NCBI GenBank assembly: GCA_965656375.1
Contig: CBFHKH010000001.1
Location: forward strand, 281,319 to 345,318
Direction: 5' to 3'
DNA length: 64,000 nucleotides
From: Minisyncoccia bacterium
GTDB lineage: Bacteria > Patescibacteriota > Minisyncoccia > Phycocordibacterales > UBA9973
Position 1 is the first letter of the stretch; every line of letters begins with the position of its first letter. Below are positions 9,283-31,320 of the stretch, piece after piece. Below the pieces are notes generated by a model. That model was given only the letters and a program-made list of their open reading frames with translations. It had not been told where the DNA came from and made no database searches. Position numbers and translations under genes: made by a program.

Positions 9283-10569
9283 TTAACATATCTCTGCATA
9301 AATTGTATGACTATTGCCATGCAGACGACCTGAATTTACTTCGTGTGAATCTATGGAGAGGCATTCTCTGTGCCCGCCAATCCACTTTGAAACTCCATTC
9401 ACCGTTGCAATAAAGACCCGATCAATATACGCATAGGTATGTTGGTCCATTTCATTTACTAATTGCGGCGCTTCGTGTTCCGGTTGCAATATATATGAAC
9501 CACGACTACGCATATTTTGCCGCAATTTTTTACGAAAGTTTCCGTCATTCAAAGAACCAGATATATGTCCATAGCAACCGAAAGTACCTTGAATTGGTTT
9601 AGCACGAATTCTCTTTTCAGTACCGTTAATTGATAACAATGAATCTATACCTGCGATTTCTAAATACTTAGAAAACTCACTCAGATACATAAGGCTTGCT
9701 TCGTCTTTCACTTCAAACCCCATACCCATAAGCGGCAGATATCTTTTTGTATCATTAATTCTTCGTTCATCAGTTTCTTGCCAGGCTGGATTATCAACAT
9801 TAAATGTAATGCTGTATTCCTTTATGATGCGTCTGATGGCAGAATCACTTAACAAGGGATGTTCTACTACTGTCTCGGGGCGCTTCAGCTTTTCAATTGG
9901 GTCGGATGAACGAACATACAGGAGATAACCACACTTTCCGCCATTCGACGAAAGATGTTGCAGGAACTCATCAGGCCCAAAGAATGCATCGAAACCTGAA
10001 AGATGCAGAACTTCTTCGTCAGATATGCTATCTTCTGAGCCTTTGCCGAATTCTGCTGCTTTCATAGCAACATATTTTTCCTTGGTAACTGCAAGAAGTG
10101 CGATAGGAAGGCTGTGCTTCGTACGCAAATCCTGCATCATTAATTTTGTCTCCTTGCTATACAAGGTAGACTGATTATCCGTTTCGCACGCTTTGGAAAG
10201 TAATTGATACAGTGCCCAATTATTCTCCATTTCAAATATTCGGCGTTTTAAAATTGTTTGCACTTCTTCAATCTTCATTATGGCCAATTCATCAAGCAAC
10301 TCGCTTGGTAAACCACACATGTCAATCTGTACAATCCAATTTATCGGATTACCATTTTGGTAGCAGTACCTGTAATCAGTCGGCCATTCACGGTTCGCTT
10401 TCACGAGTGAACCAAAAGCCTTGTTACATTCATCGTATATCTTACAAAGCGCATCAGTAACTACCTGAGGATACTTTACTTGATAATCGTTGAATGAATA
10501 CGTTGGTGAAAGCGAGGACTGTATAATTCCTGTTGTCACGCTAGAGTTTAATGGATGTTTCATTTTCAA
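9283..10569 (-). CDS. hypothetical 428-aa soluble protein, function unknown
   Basis: long ORF with strong coding look; no motif I can assign with confidence. Confidence 0.6.
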   Translation of the reverse strand: MKMKHPLNSSVTTGIIQSSLSPTYSFNDYQVKYPQVVTDALCKIYDECNKAFGSLVKANREWPTDYRYCYQNGNPINWIVQIDMCGLPSELLDELAIMKIEEVQTILKRRIFEMENNWALYQLLSKACETDNQSTLYSKETKLMMQDLRTKHSLPIALLAVTKEKYVAMKAAEFGKGSEDSISDEEVLHLSGFDAFFGPDEFLQHLSSNGGKCGYLLYVRSSDPIEKLKRPETVVEHPLLSDSAIRRIIKEYSITFNVDNPAWQETDERRINDTKRYLPLMGMGFEVKDEASLMYLSEFSKYLEIAGIDSLLSINGTEKRIRAKPIQGTFGCYGHISGSLNDGNFRKKLRQNMRSRGSYILQPEHEAPQLVNEMDQHTYAYIDRVFIATVNGVSKWIGGHRECLSIDSHEVNSGRLHGNSHTIYAEIC

Positions 10570-10661: not shown

Positions 10662-11738
10662 CTAAATTCCCTCTTCTTTAAGTCTCTCTAACGCTTCTTT
10701 TGATTTCTTGGAAAGTTTTTTTGGCATCTCGATCTGTATACGGAGAATGATGTCACCTCGGCCGCGTGAAGATGGTACACCCTTGCCACGTACTCGAAGC
10801 AGTTCTCCATGATTAATTCCTTCAGGAATCTTTACTTCGACTATATTGCCTTCAAGAGTTTTCAAATCATATTTCATTCCGAGAAGTGCATCAGTAAGTT
10901 TGATAGGTAGATCCATTGTGAGATTTAATCCATCGCGTCTAAATGTTGGATGCACTCGTACATTGACTTTAATATACAGATCCCCAGCTTGGCCTCCTTG
11001 GATAGCTTCACCCATACTGGTCATGCGAAGCATTTCCCCTGCATTGATTCCTGCAGGAATTTTAAGTTCTATTTCTTCTTGTTTGTTGCGAACACCCTTA
11101 CCAGCACACTCCGTACATTTCTCTGAAGGAATCTTTCCATTTCCATGACAAACGTCACAAACCCGTCTTGATTCAAATGAACCAAGTATAGAACGCTTCA
11201 TTTCACGAATCTGGCCATTACCATTGCAAGTCTTGCACGTATCCATCTTGACACCAGGCTTGCCACCAGTACCTTTACAAATATCGCACACTGACTGTTT
11301 AGATAGTAAAATTGTTCGTGTCACACCGAATATTGATTCTTCAAAGGAAAGATCTATTTCCGTCGAAATATCCCTGCCACGGCGTGCTTGTTTGCTACTT
11401 CGCCCACCTCCAAAGAAATCGCCAAAAATATCTCCAAGATCACCCATGTCGAACTCTACACCACCGTTCTGAAACCCTGAAAAATCAAATCCTCCAAATC
11501 CACCTTGCGCACCTCCGTTGAATCCTTGTGGACCATCTGCACCAAAGCGATCATACTGCGCACGCTTCTGGTCATCTGAAAGGGTTTGGTATGCCTGGTT
11601 TACTTCCTTGAACTTCGAATCATCACCCTTGTTCTTATCAGGGTGGTATTTGTGTGCGAGCTTATGATACGCCTTTTTAAGCTCATCTTTCGATGCACCT
11701 TTTTGTACTCCAAGTATTTCGTAATAATCTTTTGACAT
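10662..11738 (-). CDS. dnaJ: chaperone DnaJ
   Basis: J-domain with HPD (KYHPDKN), G/F-rich linker, four CxxCxGxG zinc-finger repeats. Confidence 0.95.
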
Positions 11739-11780: not shown

Positions 11781-11902
11781 CGTACTTCAGTAAAATAGCT
11801 CCTCTCATAGGACACGCGTAAAATTCTGCTGAATTTTCTGCTCCGCTCGACTCCGTCGAGCCTGCGCGAGTTCCTGCTCAAGGACTATTTTACTTTTGTA
11901 CG
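11781..11902 (-). repeat. palindromic intergenic element, diverged copy C, between dnaK and dnaJ (terminal IRs cgtacttcagtaaaatag / ctattttacttttgtacg)
   Basis: shares the AGTCCT...CTCGC...aaattctg...gagcg core with copies A/B. Confidence 0.55.
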
Positions 11903-11913
11903 AAAACTTGAAT

Positions 11914-13806
11914 TTATTTTTGTTCTGGATTCTCGTTTACTTCAGCGTCTTTGATTTCTTCTGCCTGTTGTTCTGCAGTTGTACTTCCTTCTGGAGTTGT
12001 TCCTGCTTTTTGCATTGCTTCACCGATCTTCGATACTTCAGCAGTAAGAGCTTCAAGTGCGGATTTAATTGCGGTAATGTCTGTTCCTTCTTTTGCAGTT
12101 TTTACTGCAGCAATTTTCTCTTCTACACTTGTTTTAAGAGTCGCATCGATTTTATCTCCGTATTCTTTCAATGATTTCTCAGCTGAGAATATCATCATTT
12201 CTGCTGTATTCTTCTCATCGACAAGTTCTTTTTTCTTTGCATCTTCATCAGCATGAGCGACGGCTTCATCTTGCATGCGCTTAATATCTGCATCTGTAAG
12301 ACCAGATGATGCTTCGATACGGATTGATGATTCTTTACCTGATGCTTTATCTTTCGCTTTTACGTTGAGGATACCATTGGCATCGACATCAAATGTTACT
12401 TCAATCTGTGGCATACCACGTGGTGCTGGTGGAATATCACCAAGAATAAATCTTCCAAGTGATTTGTTGTCAGATGCCATTGGTCGCTCACCTTGAGTGA
12501 TGTGGATCTCTACAGAAGTTTGATTGTCAGCTGCCGTTGAGAATACCTGGCTCTTTGAGCTTGGAATAGTCGTATTACGCTCTACAAGCTTTGTAGCGAC
12601 TCCACCAAGTGTTTCTATACCAAGCGAGAGCGGAATAACATCAAGAAGAAGCACATCTTTTACATCTCCCTGGAGAACTCCTGCCTGAACTGCAGCACCA
12701 AGCGCTACAACTTCATCTGGGTTAATTGAACGGTTTGGTTCTTTGCCGCCAAAGAGCTTCTTGACTGCCTCTACAATCGCAGGCATGCGTGTTTGTCCAC
12801 CCACCATGATAATCTCATTGATTTCGTTCATTTTGAATGGTGATGCTTCCATTGCTCGTTTTGTAATCTCGATAGAACGAGTCACATACTCTTCAGCTAG
12901 AGTTTCAAGCGTTGCACGTGTCATTTTAAGCAGCAAATGCTGTGGACCTGCATCTGTTGATGTTATGAATGGGATGTTGATTTCTGTTTCTGGTGTAGTT
13001 GAAAGCTCAATTTTTGCTTTTTCTGCCGCTTCATCAAGACGCTGGAGGGCAAGTGGATCTTTCGTTACATCTACACCTGATTGCTTTTTGAATTCATCAG
13101 CAATCCAATTGATAATTTTTTGGTCAATATCACGACCTCCCATGTGTGAATCTCCATCTGTTGATTTCACTTCAATAACATCATTTGAAACTTCAAGTAC
13201 TGATACATCGAACGTACCACCTCCGAAGTCATACACAACGATCTTCTCATCTTTCTTTGTGTTGAATCCATACGCAAGAGCTGCTGCTGTCGGCTCATTG
13301 ATGATACGCTTCACATCAAGACCTGCAATCTGACCAGCATCCTTAGTTGCCTTACGCTGTGCGTCATTGAAATATGCAGGTACCGTAATGATTGCTTCTG
13401 TGATCTTCTCACCAAGTTTTGCTTCGACATCAGCCTTGATCTTTGAAAGGATCATTGCTGATACTTCTTCTGGTCGATACCACTTATCACCAATATTTAC
13501 TTCTGCTCCACCATCTTTACCTTTCTGAATTTTGAATGGTGCAGTTTTTTGAGTCTTTTGGATTTCTGGATCTTCGAACATGTGACCCATGAATCGCTTG
13601 ATACCGTAGATCGTATTTTGGGGATTAGTCACCGCCTGACGCTTCGCAAGAAGACCAACTAATCGATCACTATTCTTACCGATTGCCACAATTGATGGCG
13701 TTGTACGCTGACCTTCGATATTCTCAATAATTTTTGGCTGACCACCTTCAATGATGGCAACTGCACTGTTTGTTGTACCTAAATCTATTCCTATTATTTT
13801 TGACAT
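11914..13806 (-). CDS. dnaK: chaperone DnaK (Hsp70)
   Basis: [18 protein letters not shown], and full-length Hsp70 architecture. Confidence 0.97.
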
Positions 13807-13837: not shown

Positions 13838-13913
13838 AAAAACAGTCTGGCCTCGCTCCGCTCCAGAATTTTGTGCGAGGAGATCCGAGGACTTTTTTCA
13901 GAATATAATTTGT
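13838..13913 (-). repeat. palindromic intergenic element, copy B, immediately upstream of dnaK
   Basis: reverse complement about 90% identical to copy A at 7660-7743. Confidence 0.8.
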
Positions 13914-13940: not shown

Positions 13941-14207
13941 TTATTTTTCTAAATCTGATGACTGCAATGGACTCGGAATCGGTGGTGCAGTCATATCTAT
14001 GACACCAAAATCTTTCTCATACTTTTCAATTTGTTGCATGAAAAACAGTGCGATACTTTTTGCTACTTGTGGTGAAGTTGCGAATGGATCGAGACTGTTA
14101 CCAGAAGCAATTGCAAACATTATTGCTTCCTTGTTGTATGCCCCAAGAGCTCCATCTGCGAACTTCTTTGGTAACTGATTAAAATCTACTTTTGTTGGAT
14201 CTACCAT
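13941..14207 (-). CDS. hypothetical 88-aa protein upstream of dnaK
   Basis: ORF only; no motif. Confidence 0.4.
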   Translation of the reverse strand: MVDPTKVDFNQLPKKFADGALGAYNKEAIMFAIASGNSLDPFATSPQVAKSIALFFMQQIEKYEKDFGVIDMTAPPIPSPLQSSDLEK

Positions 14208-14339
14208 ATATTTTTATGCCTTAATTTTAATAATTTTCGATTTCTAAAGTCATTATATAGGATGTAAATTATTTTGACAAGTATTTCGTGTCCGCAAAAT
14301 ATATGTTGATATTATATTTATAACTGTTATACTGTCAAT

Positions 14340-14885
14340 ATGGCAAAAAAACCATCAATACAGAAGGCTATTTTAAGGAGTATTTCTAGGAACAAGGCTA
14401 CTTCTTTGGAAAACGTAAAAAAAGATCTAGAAAAGGTTCTTTTGACCGATTCTGAGATGCAAAAAGGTAGCTATGCCATTACTCGCTCTATCAAAAATCT
14501 TCTTTCTGATGGCCTTATAGAGGCCTTTAATTCAGAGCATAAGCAGTACTTTAGACTTACCGGTAATGGAAAGCAAAGACTCAATAATATTGCACTTGAA
14601 GCTGAAGGGGGGCTTATATCTACAAAATGGGATGGGTACTGGAGAATAGTGCTTCTTGACCTTCCCGAAGATCGTAAAAGTGAGCGCGAAGCACTCCGTT
14701 ACCTTCTCAAAAAAGCTGGCTTCATTTGCATCAAGAATTCGGTCTGGGTGTCAATGTATCCATTCGAACATCTTTTCACAAATATAAAAAAAGATCTCAG
14801 TCTTACGACAGAGATGATGATCATGGTCACTGATAAACTTGACAGAGATACTGAAGTCGAATTTCTAAAATTGACTCAAAAATAA
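14340..14885 (+). CDS. winged-helix transcriptional regulator, PaaX-like (wHTH + Cas2/VapD-like C-terminal fold)
   Basis: N-terminal HTH-like region; C-terminal WDGYWRIVLLDLPEDRKSEREALRYLLKKAGFICIKNSVWVS matching the PaaX C-terminal pattern. Confidence 0.5.
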   Translation: MAKKPSIQKAILRSISRNKATSLENVKKDLEKVLLTDSEMQKGSYAITRSIKNLLSDGLIEAFNSEHKQYFRLTGNGKQRLNNIALEAEGGLISTKWDGYWRIVLLDLPEDRKSEREALRYLLKKAGFICIKNSVWVSMYPFEHLFTNIKKDLSLTTEMMIMVTDKLDRDTEVEFLKLTQK

Positions 14886-14903: not shown

Positions 14904-15494
14904 TTATTTTTGATATTCAAAGATAGTTACTCGCGCAGGACGCACTACTCGCTCGCCTATCTTAAATCCTGCTTGGATTACTTTTTCAATTGTATGATCT
15001 TTTGATTGATCGTCAGTCGGGATACTTTCGATAGATTGGTGGAGATTCGGATCAAATAAAACATTTGTCTTGTCAATTTTTTCTATCCCTGAATCAGCAA
15101 GTCCAGTTATGATCTGCTGGTAAATATATTCCACACCAGTACGCCAGTTTGGATCAACTTTTTCCCACGCATCTTTATTCCCCATTGCCATATCAAAACT
15201 ATCAATCGCCGGAAGTAGGTTTTCTACCATCTTTTCTTTTGTGATGATTGATGTAGCGCTTCTCACTTGATCCATTTCTTTTTGAAGATTTACATAATCG
15301 GCTTTTGCTCTTTGCCAGCCTGTCAAATATTCCTCTTTATCTAGACGGGCTTGTTTTAAATCATCGCGAAGTTTCTTTGCTACATCTTTTGTAGGTAGCG
15401 AATCTCCATCTTCTGTACTTGGAACAACTTCGACATCGTCAAATGCTTCCAAGATTTCTTCTTCTACATTTTTTGACTTGTGTTCATCACTCAT
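14904..15494 (-). CDS. grpE: nucleotide exchange factor GrpE
   Basis: coiled-coil N-terminus, LLPAIDSFDMA and C-terminal GERVVRPARVTIF beta-domain. Confidence 0.85.
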   Translation of the reverse strand: MSDEHKSKNVEEEILEAFDDVEVVPSTEDGDSLPTKDVAKKLRDDLKQARLDKEEYLTGWQRAKADYVNLQKEMDQVRSATSIITKEKMVENLLPAIDSFDMAMGNKDAWEKVDPNWRTGVEYIYQQIITGLADSGIEKIDKTNVLFDPNLHQSIESIPTDDQSKDHTIEKVIQAGFKIGERVVRPARVTIFEYQK

Positions 15495-15533: not shown

Positions 15534-16754
15534 TTATCTTTCTATCCTGTAAAGCTTATAAATAACACCTCTTTCATCATCTGAGATATATACAGTGCCA
15601 CCCGGAGATACCTGTATATCTACGGGCCTACCATTTTTCTTGCCATTTTTATCTAAAAAGCCCGTGATAAAATCTTCAGTGCCAAGATAATTACCTTTTT
15701 CATCGAGTTTAATTCGGACAACTTTGTATCCTGTTGGATCTGATCTATTCCATGATCCATGGTATGCAACAAGCAGGTTGTACCAGTATTCTTCTGGCCA
15801 ACCTTCCTCAGGAATAAAATCAAGTCCGAGCGGTGCTGAATGAGCTTCTAAATCTATATGTGATGGAGTTTCAAATGGCTCCATACATGGGTTTCGAATA
15901 TATGTTTTTTTATCAAACTCTGTATCATGAATATTCTTACCATAGCAAATCGGCCACCCATAATACTTTCCTTTCTCAACGATGTTAATCTCATCAGGCG
16001 GTGTAGTATCACCTAATCCATCACGTCCCATCTCCGTAGCCCATACCTTTCCATCAACAGGATTTGTAGTCATAAATACTGCGTTACGAAGACCTCTAGC
16101 GTACGTATCGAGTTTGTTTGTGACAATATTATAGGAAAGAATGGTGCCTTGTTTCTGATCCTTTTCTACACAAACATTGCATGAAGATCCTACAGAGATG
16201 AGAAGTGTATTGGAATATCCATCTGGCTCATTTGATGGTAGCCACATGATTGATCTGCTGTAGTGTCGATCCGTTGGATACGATGGGAGATCAACAAGTT
16301 TCTTGCCATTATACGCCTTCTCATCATCAAAATTATATCGAGAAAGTTTTCCATGCTCTGCTACATAAAGGTAATTTTGCCCACCTTCCCCCCACTCTGC
16401 TAATCCATGCGGTTTGTCGAGGCCATCTAAAATGACTTTCTTTGTCTCTGCCACTCCGTCATTATCAGTATCTTTTACAAGCGTTACTTTGCCTTCGCTT
16501 GTTTGGGTAACTAAAATTCCGGAACCTATGGGAAGCATTGTTCGTACACCTGGTACATCTTTTGCAAAAATCGAAATGCCAAATCCATCAGGAACCTTCA
16601 AATATGAGAGTGAAGATCCTTGATTAGTTTCATTTGAGATTTGATCATTTTTAGGAGGAATAGTAACAGAGCCGATTTCTTTTTTAAATACATACCATCC
16701 AATAAGGATCAGTCCGAGCATCGCTATGCTAATATATATTGCTTTTTTAGTCAT
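15534..16754 (-). CDS. membrane-anchored beta-propeller protein, soluble PQQ-dependent sugar (glucose/sorbosone) dehydrogenase-like
   Basis: N-terminal TM anchor; repeated propeller blades; C-terminal GRPVDIQVSPGGTVYISDDERGVIYKL typical of the SGDH/YliI family. Confidence 0.5.
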   Translation of the reverse strand: MTKKAIYISIAMLGLILIGWYVFKKEIGSVTIPPKNDQISNETNQGSSLSYLKVPDGFGISIFAKDVPGVRTMLPIGSGILVTQTSEGKVTLVKDTDNDGVAETKKVILDGLDKPHGLAEWGEGGQNYLYVAEHGKLSRYNFDDEKAYNGKKLVDLPSYPTDRHYSRSIMWLPSNEPDGYSNTLLISVGSSCNVCVEKDQKQGTILSYNIVTNKLDTYARGLRNAVFMTTNPVDGKVWATEMGRDGLGDTTPPDEINIVEKGKYYGWPICYGKNIHDTEFDKKTYIRNPCMEPFETPSHIDLEAHSAPLGLDFIPEEGWPEEYWYNLLVAYHGSWNRSDPTGYKVVRIKLDEKGNYLGTEDFITGFLDKNGKKNGRPVDIQVSPGGTVYISDDERGVIYKLYRIER

Positions 16755-30288: not shown

Positions 30289-31320
30289 TTAGAGAGCGCT
30301 GTAAAGTCCTGCTTTGTTCTTTTTGAAATATTTTGAGTTCTGAAGATTAACGAGAATGGTATTTTTCTTGAGGTACCGCTCCTTCATAACCTGTTCGACG
30401 ATATCTTCTTTTGACATTGGGCCATTCTTTCGAAGAAGCTCTTTAATCACATCACGCACTACACCGGACTTATATCCCCATTCTGAAAGTGCGTAAATAC
30501 CGCGACCGACAAGTACAAAACGAGGATCTTTGATGAGTTCATTGTGGCATGTTGCAGTGTGACACTTCTTGTCGAATGTATTTGCAACTGCTTTTGCAAC
30601 TTCACGGAAGTGCATTGGTGAGCCGTGCTTACGCATCATAAGGAATGCATAGTCTTTGACCCCTCGAGTTTTGATACTCGAAGAGGTAGCCTTGCCCCAC
30701 TCTCCGAGAGGGTTGCGGCTAATATTTTTAGACATACTGAGCCAACGTTTTGCCATTTCTTCATTTTTGTATTGTTCAGAAAGGTCTTTCACTTCATCAA
30801 GGAATCGAGCTATAAGCTCAGATTCAGGAACAAGCTCATCATCTGAAAGATTTTCAAAAAGATTCTTGAGTGATTTATGTACTTCTTCTGATACATCGCT
30901 ATCGACACTCCATCTTGTTTTAAAATCATCGTCTTCTTTGTGTTTTGTAAATTCATCACCAAGAGTCAAATAGAGATGAATATGATTTTGTGTAAGTTTA
31001 TCTTTTGAAAGATGATTCAACAGATCCTGTTCAGAAACAATTGCTCCGAGGGTATGTATAAGCTTTTTTAATTCTTCGAATACAGCCTTTTCATCTTTGA
31101 ATGCTTGAGATTTTCGTATTAGCGCAAGTGCTGCGTTCTCAATCTGGCGAACACGCTCACGTGTGATACCGTATTTCTGGCCGATAGCTTCAAGTGTCTT
31201 CCGCTGTGCATCATCAGTGAGGCCAAAGCGATTTGTGATCACCTCGTAGGCGCGATCAGGCAGATGTGAGAGCATCCGCTTTGTAACTTGCTTTGGTTTA
31301 AATGTAACAGTGGTGGCCAT
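30289..31320 (-). CDS. sigma-70 region-4 HTH protein with two C-terminal HARE-HTH-like winged-helix modules
   Basis: N-terminal YEVITNRFGL..QRKTLEAIGQKYGITRERVRQIENAALALIR (sigma r4); C-terminal HFREVAKAV...RFVLVGRGIYALSEWGY and SKEDIVEQVMK...KYFKKNKAGLYS. Confidence 0.55.
   Translation of the reverse strand: MATTVTFKPKQVTKRMLSHLPDRAYEVITNRFGLTDDAQRKTLEAIGQKYGITRERVRQIENAALALIRKSQAFKDEKAVFEELKKLIHTLGAIVSEQDLLNHLSKDKLTQNHIHLYLTLGDEFTKHKEDDDFKTRWSVDSDVSEEVHKSLKNLFENLSDDELVPESELIARFLDEVKDLSEQYKNEEMAKRWLSMSKNISRNPLGEWGKATSSSIKTRGVKDYAFLMMRKHGSPMHFREVAKAVANTFDKKCHTATCHNELIKDPRFVLVGRGIYALSEWGYKSGVVRDVIKELLRKNGPMSKEDIVEQVMKERYLKKNTILVNLQNSKYFKKNKAGLYSAL

What the first reader, a model, noticed from the sequence alone, without database searches (positions are those of the whole stretch)
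14340..14885. PaaX-like wHTH regulator embedded divergently inside the grpE-dnaK-dnaJ locus where hrcA is expected
Seen in sequence: a 181-aa protein with an N-terminal HTH-like region and a C-terminal WDGYWRIVLLDLPEDRKSEREALRYLLKKAGFICIKNSVWVS block. The block matches the PaaX C-terminal (Cas2/VapD-like beta-alpha-beta) pattern. The gene is transcribed divergently between grpE and the 88-aa ORF/dnaK. Established knowledge: bacterial dnaK operons are usually controlled by HrcA/CIRCE or sigma32. Neither an hrcA gene nor a CIRCE inverted repeat (TTAGCACTC-N9-GAGTGCTAA) is visible in this locus. Inference: this regulator, with the palindromic elements upstream of dnaK and dnaJ, may form a lineage-specific heat-shock control circuit.
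Basis: partly seen in the sequence, partly recalled or inferred. Interest (0 to 1): 0.55.

Follow-up and report, generated by a model that had tools for sequence, protein, structure and literature searches.

The report
Truncated PaaX-like repressor guarding dnaK
A small DNA-binding protein related to the PaaX repressor sits back-to-back with the dnaK chaperone operon in hundreds of ultra-small (Patescibacteria) bacteria, next to a conserved 30-bp palindrome that overlaps the promoters, so it is very probably an undescribed regulator of the Hsp70 chaperone genes in this lineage.

Summary
The ORF is real. It encodes 181 aa: a winged-helix domain plus the PaaX central Cas2-like domain (PF20803). 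PaaX's C-terminal ligand-binding domain is absent.

The gene lies head-to-head with dnaK in 76 of 80 species-level relatives with 50-81% identity. It also lies next to a grpE/dnaK operon in 8 of 11 distant family members (24-51% identity) that had usable context.

The decisive new result is a 30-bp palindrome, ACAAGTATTTnGyG-AC-CrCnAAAtacTTGT, at window 14277-14306. It occurs in 79 of 81 loci, usually 60-64 nt upstream of the regulator's ATG. Its arms overlap the -35 boxes of the dnaK-directed promoter and of the regulator's own leaderless promoter. It also covers the predicted start site of a second, consensus dnaK-directed promoter. Where dnaJ is unlinked from dnaK, dnaJ has its own copy.

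No CIRCE, HAIR or CtsR box occurs in 909 kb of such loci.

Best reading: an autoregulated repressor of the Hsp70 operon, analogous in function to HrcA or HspR. Heat responsiveness, the sensing mechanism and the absence of hrcA elsewhere in the genome are untested. I found no literature describing it.

The parts
14340..14885 (+). Gene for the 181-aa truncated PaaX-like regulator (wHTH residues ~7-90; Cas2-like PaaX_M domain residues ~95-171)
   Evidence: ORF; PF20803 E=5e-19; AF2 pLDDT 89.5; Foldseek top hit PaaX 8A39; 1849 homologous clusters, all from Patescibacteria where a source names the organism
14277..14306 (.). 30-bp palindromic operator ACAAGTATTTCGTGTCCGCAAAATATATGT (25/30 match to the family consensus; its centre, TC, is atypical)
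   Evidence: Only copy in the 64 kb, with 0 expected by chance. Present in 79/81 loci, 60-64 nt upstream of the regulator ATG in 62/79, with six invariant positions
14252..14280 (-). P1, the proximal dnaK-operon promoter: -35 TTGTCA (14280-14275, overlapping 4 bp of the operator's left arm), 17-bp spacer, -10 TATAAT (14257-14252)
   Evidence: Consensus scan 11/12. Across 68 loci the -35 is TTGTCA in 56, the spacer is 17 bp in 59, and the -10 is TATAAT or TATACT in 60
14311..14338 (-). P2, the distal dnaK-directed promoter: TTGACA-16-TATAAT (12/12). The predicted start site, ~14304, lies inside the operator. P2 overlaps the regulator's own promoter face to face
   Evidence: Score >=10/12 in 43/68 loci (12/12 in 23) against 2.4% of shuffles; the -10 ends 2-8 nt from the operator edge in most loci
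14306..14333 (+). Promoter of the regulator gene: -35 TTGATA (its first base is the last base of the operator), 16-bp spacer, TGn-TATACT. The -10 ends 6 nt before the ATG, so the mRNA is predicted to be leaderless
   Evidence: In 52/68 loci the -10 ends 6-7 nt before the ATG, and a Shine-Dalgarno-like motif occurs in only 1/79
13941..14207 (-). 88-aa ORF, the first gene downstream of the operator and promoters; a conserved small protein resembling DUF3467
   Evidence: Orthologues of 63-85% identity at the same position in about 10 loci; DUF3467 hits of 17-24 bits against a cut-off of 25 in every orthologue tested
11914..13806 (-). dnaK (Hsp70), the predicted main target
   Evidence: 630-aa ORF; 70-93% identical orthologues divergent from the regulator in 76/80 loci; the orthologous gene in related loci carries precomputed PF00012 HSP70 hits
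10662..11738 (-). dnaJ, downstream in the same transcription direction
   Evidence: Where dnaJ is unlinked from dnaK (L039, L042, L057) it has its own operator copy abutting a -35 TTGAAA
14876..14913 (.). Perfect 17-bp stem, 4-nt loop hairpin shared by the convergent 3' ends of the regulator gene and grpE (a bidirectional terminator)
14904..15494 (-). grpE, convergent with the regulator. No operator lies upstream of it in this lineage. In more distant relatives grpE is the first gene of the operator-controlled operon
   Evidence: PF01025 E=5e-34; no operator core near grpE; grpE-dnaK(-dnaJ) operons divergent from the regulator in L085, L087, L109, L111

Best explanation
The gene encodes a truncated PaaX-family transcription factor. 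It keeps the winged-helix DNA-binding domain and the Cas2-like dimerisation domain but lacks the acyl-CoA-binding C-terminal domain. As a dimer it binds the 30-bp palindrome at 14277-14306, which lies between its own gene and the orf88-dnaK-dnaJ operon. The outer 4 bp of the left arm form part of the -35 box of the dnaK promoter P1. The right arm abuts the -35 box of the regulator's own leaderless promoter. The predicted start site of a second, consensus dnaK-directed promoter (P2) falls inside the palindrome. Occupancy should therefore exclude RNA polymerase from all three promoters: the protein represses the Hsp70 operon and itself. Release under proteotoxic stress would de-repress dnaK. Release could come from intrinsic thermolability or from titration of DnaK/DnaJ, by analogy with HspR-DnaK and HrcA-GroEL. 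Shown here: domain architecture, conserved synteny, the conserved operator and its position relative to consensus promoters, and the dnaJ-specific copies. Inferred: that this protein is what binds the palindrome, and that it represses. Speculative: the stress signal.
For: Architecture: PF20803 at 68.5 bits, an AF2 model with pLDDT 89.5, and best structural match PaaX 8A39 plus the PaaX-like 3L09 and 3KFW.
Synteny: the gene is divergent from dnaK in 76/80 GTDB species loci at 50-81% identity. It is divergent from grpE/dnaK operons for 8 of 11 distant members at 30-51% identity (+68, 42-45, 48, 82, 84).
Operator: present in 79/81 loci, with 69 distinct sequences, six invariant positions and a fixed 60-64-nt distance to the ATG.
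Specificity: the core TTNGYGRYCRCNAA is absent from the rest of 864 kb except upstream of unlinked dnaJ genes. The relaxed core is found only at canonical sites, three dnaJ sites and one stray hit in 909 kb.
Protein site rather than hairpin: the symmetric variable positions vary independently (13/18: TA 20, CA 19, TG 19, CG 11), and the central AC step occurs in either orientation.
Promoter geometry: near-consensus P1, an autoregulatory leaderless promoter, and a conserved P2 whose start site lies in the operator.
Co-variation: the operator centre changes together with the protein in distant members while the 30-bp geometry is kept. The one unlinked member I inspected (L110) has no such palindrome.
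Family precedent: PaaX is a repressor that competes with RNA polymerase and binds widely spaced inverted half-sites, TGATTC-N27-GAATCA (PMC9493321).
Against: There is no experimental or expression data. Binding of this protein to the palindrome is inferred only from co-occurrence.
On P1 and on the regulator's promoter the operator lies mainly upstream of the -35 box (centre about -47). That position is also compatible with activation.
The promoters are consensus predictions in AT-rich DNA.
The window's own operator is one of the weaker copies (25/30, atypical centre TC).
No additional regulon members such as groESL or clpB were found, but the metagenome test for them was deliberately restrictive.
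grpE is not under the operator in this lineage.
Whether hrcA/CIRCE exists elsewhere in the genome is unknown.
Confidence: 0.68

Rival explanations
1. The protein binds the palindrome but acts as an activator of dnaK, and possibly of itself. It would contact sigma region 4 or the alpha C-terminal domain from a site overlapping or abutting the -35 box, as class II activators do.
For: The operator centre lies about 46-48 bp upstream of the predicted P1 and regulator start sites and overlaps the -35 boxes by only 1-4 bp. The dnaJ-specific copies sit immediately upstream of a -35 TTGAAA.
Against: P1 is already near consensus (TTGTCA-17-TATAAT in most loci), which is unlike activator-dependent promoters. 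The operator covers the predicted start site of the conserved consensus promoter P2, a position that can only repress. The offset between operator and -35 differs by 3 bp between sides and loci (-4 or -1), so the helical phase is not kept. Characterised PaaX proteins are repressors.
Confidence: 0.12
2. The regulator does repress dnaK, but not as the heat-shock switch. HrcA/CIRCE, a sigma factor or an RNA thermometer elsewhere handles heat. This protein would couple Hsp70 levels to another signal such as growth state, host attachment or a small ligand bound by the Cas2-like domain.
For: No sensing mechanism can be read from the sequence. grpE has escaped the operator in this lineage. No operator was found outside Hsp70-system promoters. 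Only 64 kb of a contig of about 840 kb was available.
Against: The dnaK loci carry no CIRCE, HAIR or CtsR box in 909 kb from 93 loci. In distant relatives the regulator occupies exactly the position upstream of grpE-dnaK-dnaJ that hrcA holds in Firmicutes (established knowledge; loci). A dedicated, autoregulated repressor of the Hsp70 operon is the pattern of every known bacterial heat-shock repressor.
Confidence: 0.15
3. The palindrome is not this protein's site. It would be a structural element (an RNA hairpin in the P2 transcript, a cruciform or a terminator) or the site of another factor, and the PaaX-like gene would be a syntenic passenger with an unrelated role such as a Cas2-like nuclease or toxin-antitoxin function.
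For: The palindrome would be transcribed from P2 and could fold, as CIRCE does in mRNA. No binding data exist.
Against: There is no compensatory covariation at the variable symmetric positions, and the outer right arm is degenerate in a whole clade. The element lies upstream of P1's start site. Its distance to the regulator's ATG is fixed, and its centre co-varies with the protein in distant members. The protein has a canonical wHTH. The Cas2 model scores below its cut-off (15.7 against 24.5 bits), and none of the loci whose called genes were listed shows a cas gene.
Confidence: 0.05

Closest known systems
PaaX, the phenylacetyl-CoA-responsive repressor of the paa catabolon (E. coli; PDB 8A39; PaaX-like 3L09 and 3KFW/Rv0674)
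   Same: It has an N-terminal wHTH followed by the Cas2-like central (dimerisation) domain, and PaaX is its best sequence and structure match in the PDB. Its operator also consists of widely spaced inverted half-sites at promoters, and its gene is autoregulated from a divergent or adjacent position. PaaX itself represses by competing with RNA polymerase.
   Different: It is 181 aa against about 305-316 aa, and the five-helix C-terminal domain that binds phenylacetyl-CoA is missing. It scores 35.8 bits against the 264.55-bit TIGR02277 cut-off. No paa genes are nearby; the target is the Hsp70 operon. The operator sequence is unrelated (ACAAGTATTTnGyG-AC-CrCnAAATACTTGT against TGATTC-N27-GAATCA).
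HrcA/CIRCE, the heat-shock repressor encoded at hrcA-grpE-dnaK-dnaJ in Firmicutes and many other bacteria
   Same: The regulator gene sits directly upstream of the (grpE-)dnaK-dnaJ operon. A long perfect or near-perfect palindrome lies at the promoter and, for P2, at or after the start site. The circuit is predicted to be autoregulated.
   Different: There is no homology: the fold differs, no HrcA Pfam hit was found and no CIRCE sequence is present. The gene is divergent from the operon rather than co-transcribed with it. No link to groESL was seen.
HspR/HAIR, the MerR-family repressor of the dnaK operon in Actinobacteria, Helicobacter and Campylobacter
   Same: It is a dedicated repressor of the dnaK operon. 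Chaperone feedback, with DnaK as co-repressor, is the best available model for how this regulator might sense stress.
   Different: HspR belongs to the MerR family and is encoded at the end of the operon. The HAIR motif is absent here.

Membership tests
PaaX (TIGR02277 equivalog; Pfam PaaX + PaaX_M + PaaX_C) | Central Cas2-like domain (PF20803 PaaX_M) | tested here: met
   68.5 bits against a cut-off of 24, residues 95-171
PaaX (TIGR02277 equivalog; Pfam PaaX + PaaX_M + PaaX_C) | N-terminal winged-helix DNA-binding domain | tested here: met
   AF2 gives H7-17, H23-34, H37-56 and a beta-wing at 60-73. Foldseek aligns the whole protein to PaaX 8A39 and the N-domain to PadR/MarR wHTH proteins. 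The Pfam sequence hits are only weak (HTH_61, PadR)
PaaX (TIGR02277 equivalog; Pfam PaaX + PaaX_M + PaaX_C) | C-terminal helical inducer-binding domain (PaaX_C), giving a full length of about 300 aa | tested here: not met
   The protein ends at residue 181 and has no PaaX_C hit. The matched PaaX chain 8A39 is 305-316 residues long. The C-terminal domain binds phenylacetyl-CoA
PaaX (TIGR02277 equivalog; Pfam PaaX + PaaX_M + PaaX_C) | Score above the equivalog cut-off, and linkage to paa catabolic genes | tested here: not met
   35.8 bits against 264.55. The neighbours are dnaK, dnaJ, grpE and ribosomal protein genes in all loci
HrcA/CIRCE | HrcA protein domains (PF01628/PF03444) | tested here: not met
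   No HrcA hit for the regulator or any of the five other locus ORFs scanned. No HrcA family is listed for any called gene in L083-L089 or L109-L111
HrcA/CIRCE | CIRCE operator TTAGCACTC-N9-GAGTGCTAA at chaperone promoters | tested here: not met
   0 matches at <=3 mismatches in the window and in 909 kb from 93 loci
HrcA/CIRCE | hrcA present elsewhere in the same genome | not testable with these tools
HspR/HAIR and CtsR | HAIR (CTTGAGT-N7-ACTCAAG) or the CtsR direct repeat at the dnaK promoter | tested here: not met
   None in 909 kb
Cas2 (TIGR01573) | Score above the cut-off, and a CRISPR-cas context | tested here: not met
   15.7 bits against 24.5. No cas gene appears among the called genes listed for L081-L089 and L109-L111; CRISPR arrays were not searched for
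Bacterial heat-shock repressor (functional class) | Stress- or temperature-dependent loss of operator binding and de-repression of chaperone genes | not testable with these tools
   This needs EMSA or footprinting at different temperatures and expression data. Only the promoter-operator geometry is available

The most novel reading that the evidence does not exclude
A previously unrecognised family of heat-shock repressors, truncated PaaX proteins, has replaced HrcA/CIRCE as the master control of the Hsp70 system across a large part of the Patescibacteria. Stress would be sensed not through a small ligand but through the Cas2-like domain, either by its thermolability or by its interaction with DnaK/DnaJ. 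This would add another independent class of bacterial heat-shock repressor beside HrcA, HspR, CtsR and RheA, and would be one of the first transcription circuits with a defined operator in the CPR.
Probability: 0.4. Interest if true: 0.72.

Novelty: new variant of a known kind. Interest (0 to 1): 0.6.

Why it matters
Gene regulation in Patescibacteria (the CPR) is almost entirely unknown. These organisms are largely uncultivated and carry few recognisable transcription factors.

This locus offers a complete, compact circuit that can be tested in vitro: one small protein, one 30-bp operator and three predicted promoters. It is conserved over hundreds of species, which makes it directly accessible to EMSA, footprinting and reporter assays without culturing the organism.

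If confirmed, it would show how a streamlined lineage controls its main chaperone system without HrcA/CIRCE at the locus. It would also show that the PaaX scaffold can work without its ligand-binding domain. The defined operator consensus could then be used to annotate Hsp70 promoters in CPR metagenomes.

Tried and rejected
1. They fold stably, and the first keeps its outer stem through compensatory changes. However, they are missing from close relatives, and a shared motif recurs at other positions and in other orientations.
2. An RNA-structure reading of the 30-bp palindrome is rejected on the pair statistics.
3. Rfam gave nothing in the locus.
4. The first AF2 run, on a shallow alignment, gave a poor C-terminal domain (pLDDT 58.8). 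A 118-sequence alignment fixed this.
5. A second homologue search with a diverse profile returned the same close subfamily again and added little.
6. The regulon search gave no further members. A viral-contig scan produced 11 chance-level hits. The single metagenome scan used flank exclusion against canonical sites. It gave 8 hits: 3 variant canonical loci and 5 unrelated perfect hairpins in non-CPR contigs. So there is no evidence for further targets, but the test loses weak sites and any site preceded by T four bases upstream.
8. Literature searches found no description of a dnaK-linked PaaX-like regulator.
9. Whether hrcA lies elsewhere in the genome could not be addressed.

Full report
OBSERVATION.

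The ORF at 14340-14885 (+) is real and encodes 181 aa. Residues 95-171 match Pfam PaaX_M, the central Cas2-like domain of PaaX, at E=5e-19 (68.5 bits, cut-off 24). The N-terminus gives only weak HTH_61/DUF4364/PadR hits. Against NCBIfam the protein reaches 35.8 bits on the PaaX equivalog model, whose cut-off is 264.55, and 15.7 bits on cas2, whose cut-off is 24.5.

The real C-terminal domain binds the inducer phenylacetyl-CoA in PaaX (PMC9493321), and it is missing here.

An AlphaFold model built on a 118-sequence alignment has pLDDT 89.5. It shows a three-helix winged helix (H7-17, H23-34, H37-56, wing 60-73), a linker helix, and a beta-alpha-beta-beta-alpha-beta domain. Its best PDB match is E. 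coli PaaX 8A39, aligned over both domains. The PaaX-like proteins 3L09 and 3KFW and many PadR/MarR/AspA-type wHTH proteins follow. A profile search of PDB sequences agrees.

After grpE come a glucose/sorbosone-dehydrogenase-like gene and the rpsI-rplM-rplQ-rpoA block. There is no CIRCE in the window at up to 3 mismatches, and Rfam finds nothing in the locus.

FAMILY AND SYNTENY.

The protein has 1849 homologous 90%-identity clusters. All are about 180 aa and carry PF20803. Where a source names the organism it is Patescibacteria, Paceibacterota or Nomurabacteria. The window's own copy lies on a contig of 840 kb.

In a library of 50%-identity representatives, a profile of the family finds 2871 proteins at E<=1e-3 but only 17 at E<=1e-30. 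The window's protein thus belongs to a tight subfamily within a broad family of roughly 190-aa truncated PaaX proteins.

A scan of one genome per GTDB species found 239 relatives, of which the best 80 loci were kept. In 76 of those 80 the gene lies head-to-head with dnaK, usually 100-300 bp apart. Three of the exceptions are cut by a contig end and one has an insertion. dnaJ usually follows dnaK, and grpE is usually convergent just downstream, followed by rpsI.

I then looked at eleven more distant members with enough flanking DNA:
- Eight, at 30-51% identity, are also divergent from a chaperone operon. They are P0122, P0123, P0124, P0127, P0129, P0137, P0141 and P0156. In this group the operon is typically grpE-dnaK(-dnaJ), so the regulator occupies the position that hrcA holds in Firmicutes (+68, 42-45, 48, 82, 84).
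- Three, at 24-34% identity (P0135, P0164, P0197), are not next to chaperone genes.

THE OPERATOR.

Aligning the 160 nt upstream of the regulator's ATG across the loci reveals a 30-bp palindrome with consensus ACAAGTATTTnGyG-AC-CrCnAAAtacTTGT.
- It is present in 79 of 81 loci. The two without it lack upstream DNA or contain Ns.
- There are 69 distinct versions. Six positions are invariant (C2, G12, G14, C17, C19, G29) and many others nearly so.
- It starts 60-64 nt before the ATG in 62 of 79 loci.
- In the window it is 14277-14306. That is the only copy in 64 kb, with 0 expected by chance.

Two observations argue for a protein-binding site on duplex DNA rather than a hairpin. First, the symmetric variable positions vary independently of each other. 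For pair 13/18 the counts are TA 20, CA 19, TG 19 and CG 11. Second, the central step is AC or its complement GT in 62 of 69 versions, so it occurs in either orientation.

The core TTNGYGRYCRCNAA occurs nowhere else in 864 kb of these loci, on either strand, except upstream of dnaJ in L039 and L057. With a slightly relaxed core, L042 joins them. In all three loci dnaJ has become separated from dnaK, and the extra palindrome abuts a -35 TTGAAA followed by 17 bp and a good -10. The element therefore tracks Hsp70-system promoters, not merely the regulator's own gene.

In the distant dnaK-linked members the 30-bp geometry and the outer TTGACAAGT...TTGTCAA arms persist, but the centre changes together with the protein. 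Examples are CATATATATG, CACTATATTG, TACGACCGTA and CATGACCGCG. These members also replace the otherwise invariant Asn53 of the recognition helix. The unlinked member L110 has no such palindrome. This co-variation is suggestive only: the sample is small and confounded by phylogeny.

PROMOTER GEOMETRY.

Consensus scans place three promoters on this one operator.
- P1 reads towards orf88-dnaK-dnaJ. It is TTGTCA-17-TATAAT, and its -35 box is formed by the outer 4 bp of the left arm.
- The regulator's own promoter is TTGATA-16-TGnTATACT, and its -35 box begins at the last base of the right arm. Its -10 ends 6 nt before the ATG.
- P2 is a perfect TTGACA-16-TATAAT that also reads towards dnaK. Its -35 box lies over the regulator's start codon region, and its predicted start site, about 14304, is inside the operator.

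All three are conserved across 68 loci.
- P1 has -35 TTGTCA in 56, a 17-bp spacer in 59 and -10 TATAAT or TATACT in 60.
- The regulator's -10 ends 6-7 nt before the ATG in 52, and only 1 of 79 loci has a Shine-Dalgarno-like motif. A leaderless mRNA is therefore predicted.
- P2 scores at least 10/12 in 43 loci, and 12/12 in 23, against 2.4% of shuffled controls.

A protein sitting on the palindrome would occlude two -35 boxes and one start site.

MECHANISM.

The best-supported reading is an autoregulated repressor of the Hsp70 operon. A dimer, held together by the Cas2-like domain as in PaaX, would place its two wHTH domains on the two half-sites and exclude RNA polymerase. Four points favour repression over activation:
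- the promoters are near consensus;
- the operator covers the P2 start site;
- the operator-to-(-35) offset is variable (-4 or -1);
- PaaX itself represses by competing with RNA polymerase at widely spaced half-sites.

The ligand-binding domain is absent, so an acyl-CoA signal is unlikely. By analogy with HspR-DnaK, HrcA-GroEL, or RheA and CtsR, the signal would be chaperone titration or intrinsic thermolability. That step is speculation.

The loci carry no CIRCE, HAIR or CtsR box in 909 kb. In the window's lineage grpE has left the operon and has no operator.

The elements at 13838-13913 and 11781-11902 are long GC-rich hairpins. Close relatives have only a 34-nt AT-rich spacer between orf88 and dnaK, and 5-23 nt between dnaK and dnaJ.

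The motif AAWTTCAGCAGAAWTTT from the second element recurs in six other loci at different positions and in both orientations.

The first element keeps its outer stem through compensatory changes in the five loci that have it. It may therefore act as an optional intra-operon RNA hairpin, or it may be a MITE-like insertion. Either way it is not the conserved control element.

LIMITS.

- No binding or expression data exist.
- The search for further regulon members was restrictive and negative.
- Only 64 kb of the genome could be inspected, so an hrcA/CIRCE circuit elsewhere, for example at groESL, is not excluded.
- Four literature searches found no description of this regulator.

VERDICT.

This is a new functional variant of the PaaX family: truncated, linked to the Hsp70 operon, with a new operator. 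It is conserved widely in Patescibacteria and is directly testable.

Noticed in passing
window 13838-13913 and 11781-11902: GC-rich long hairpins lie in the orf88-dnaK and dnaK-dnaJ spacers. They are present in only some close relatives. The second shares the motif AAWTTCAGCAGAAWTTT with elements at other positions and orientations in L010, L025, L031, L036, L042 and L044. The first keeps its outer stem through compensatory changes. They could be MITE/REP-like insertions or optional intra-operon RNA hairpins.
   Followed up: partly
window 13941-14207 (-): The 88-aa ORF is a real, conserved small protein (63-85% identity in about 10 loci) that resembles DUF3467 at just below the Pfam cut-off. 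In this sub-clade it is the first gene transcribed from the operator-controlled promoters, ahead of dnaK. Its function is unknown.
   Followed up: partly
window 14328-14342 and 68 related loci: The regulator's mRNA is predicted to be leaderless. The -10 ends 6-7 nt before the ATG in 52/68 loci, and there is essentially never a Shine-Dalgarno motif.
   Followed up: yes
window 14904-15494; L085, L087, L109, L111: grpE has changed sides. In distant relatives it is the first gene of the operator-controlled grpE-dnaK-dnaJ operon. In the window's clade it lies on the other side of the regulator, downstream of the rpsI ribosomal block, with its own promoter-like site (15531->15504) and no operator.
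   Followed up: partly
L003, L011, L045, L069, L078 (between the regulator's promoter and its ATG): Palindromic insertions of 70-120 nt, for example CCTGTCCCGTTAGAA...TTCTAACGGGATG, separate the conserved promoter and operator from the annotated start. In these loci the mRNA would not be leaderless, or a different start codon is used.
   Followed up: no
L088, L089, L110: Other subfamilies of the ~190-aa truncated PaaX family in Patescibacteria are not linked to chaperone genes. Their neighbours include HIT, PDDEXK nuclease, UDG, tRNA synthetase and rRNA methyltransferase genes. This suggests the scaffold is a general CPR transcription-factor family with unknown targets.
   Followed up: partly
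window 15534-16754 (-): A glucose/sorbosone-dehydrogenase-like gene is inserted between grpE and rpsI. Among the 80 related loci only L045 has it.
   Followed up: no
window 30289-31320 (-): A 343-aa protein has a segment resembling sigma-70 region 4 by eye (...GITRERVRQIENAALALIRK...). It might be a sigma-like or other HTH factor and was not analysed.
   Followed up: no
window 9283-10569 (-): The 428-aa ORF immediately downstream of dnaJ has no Pfam hit at E<=1.
   Followed up: no
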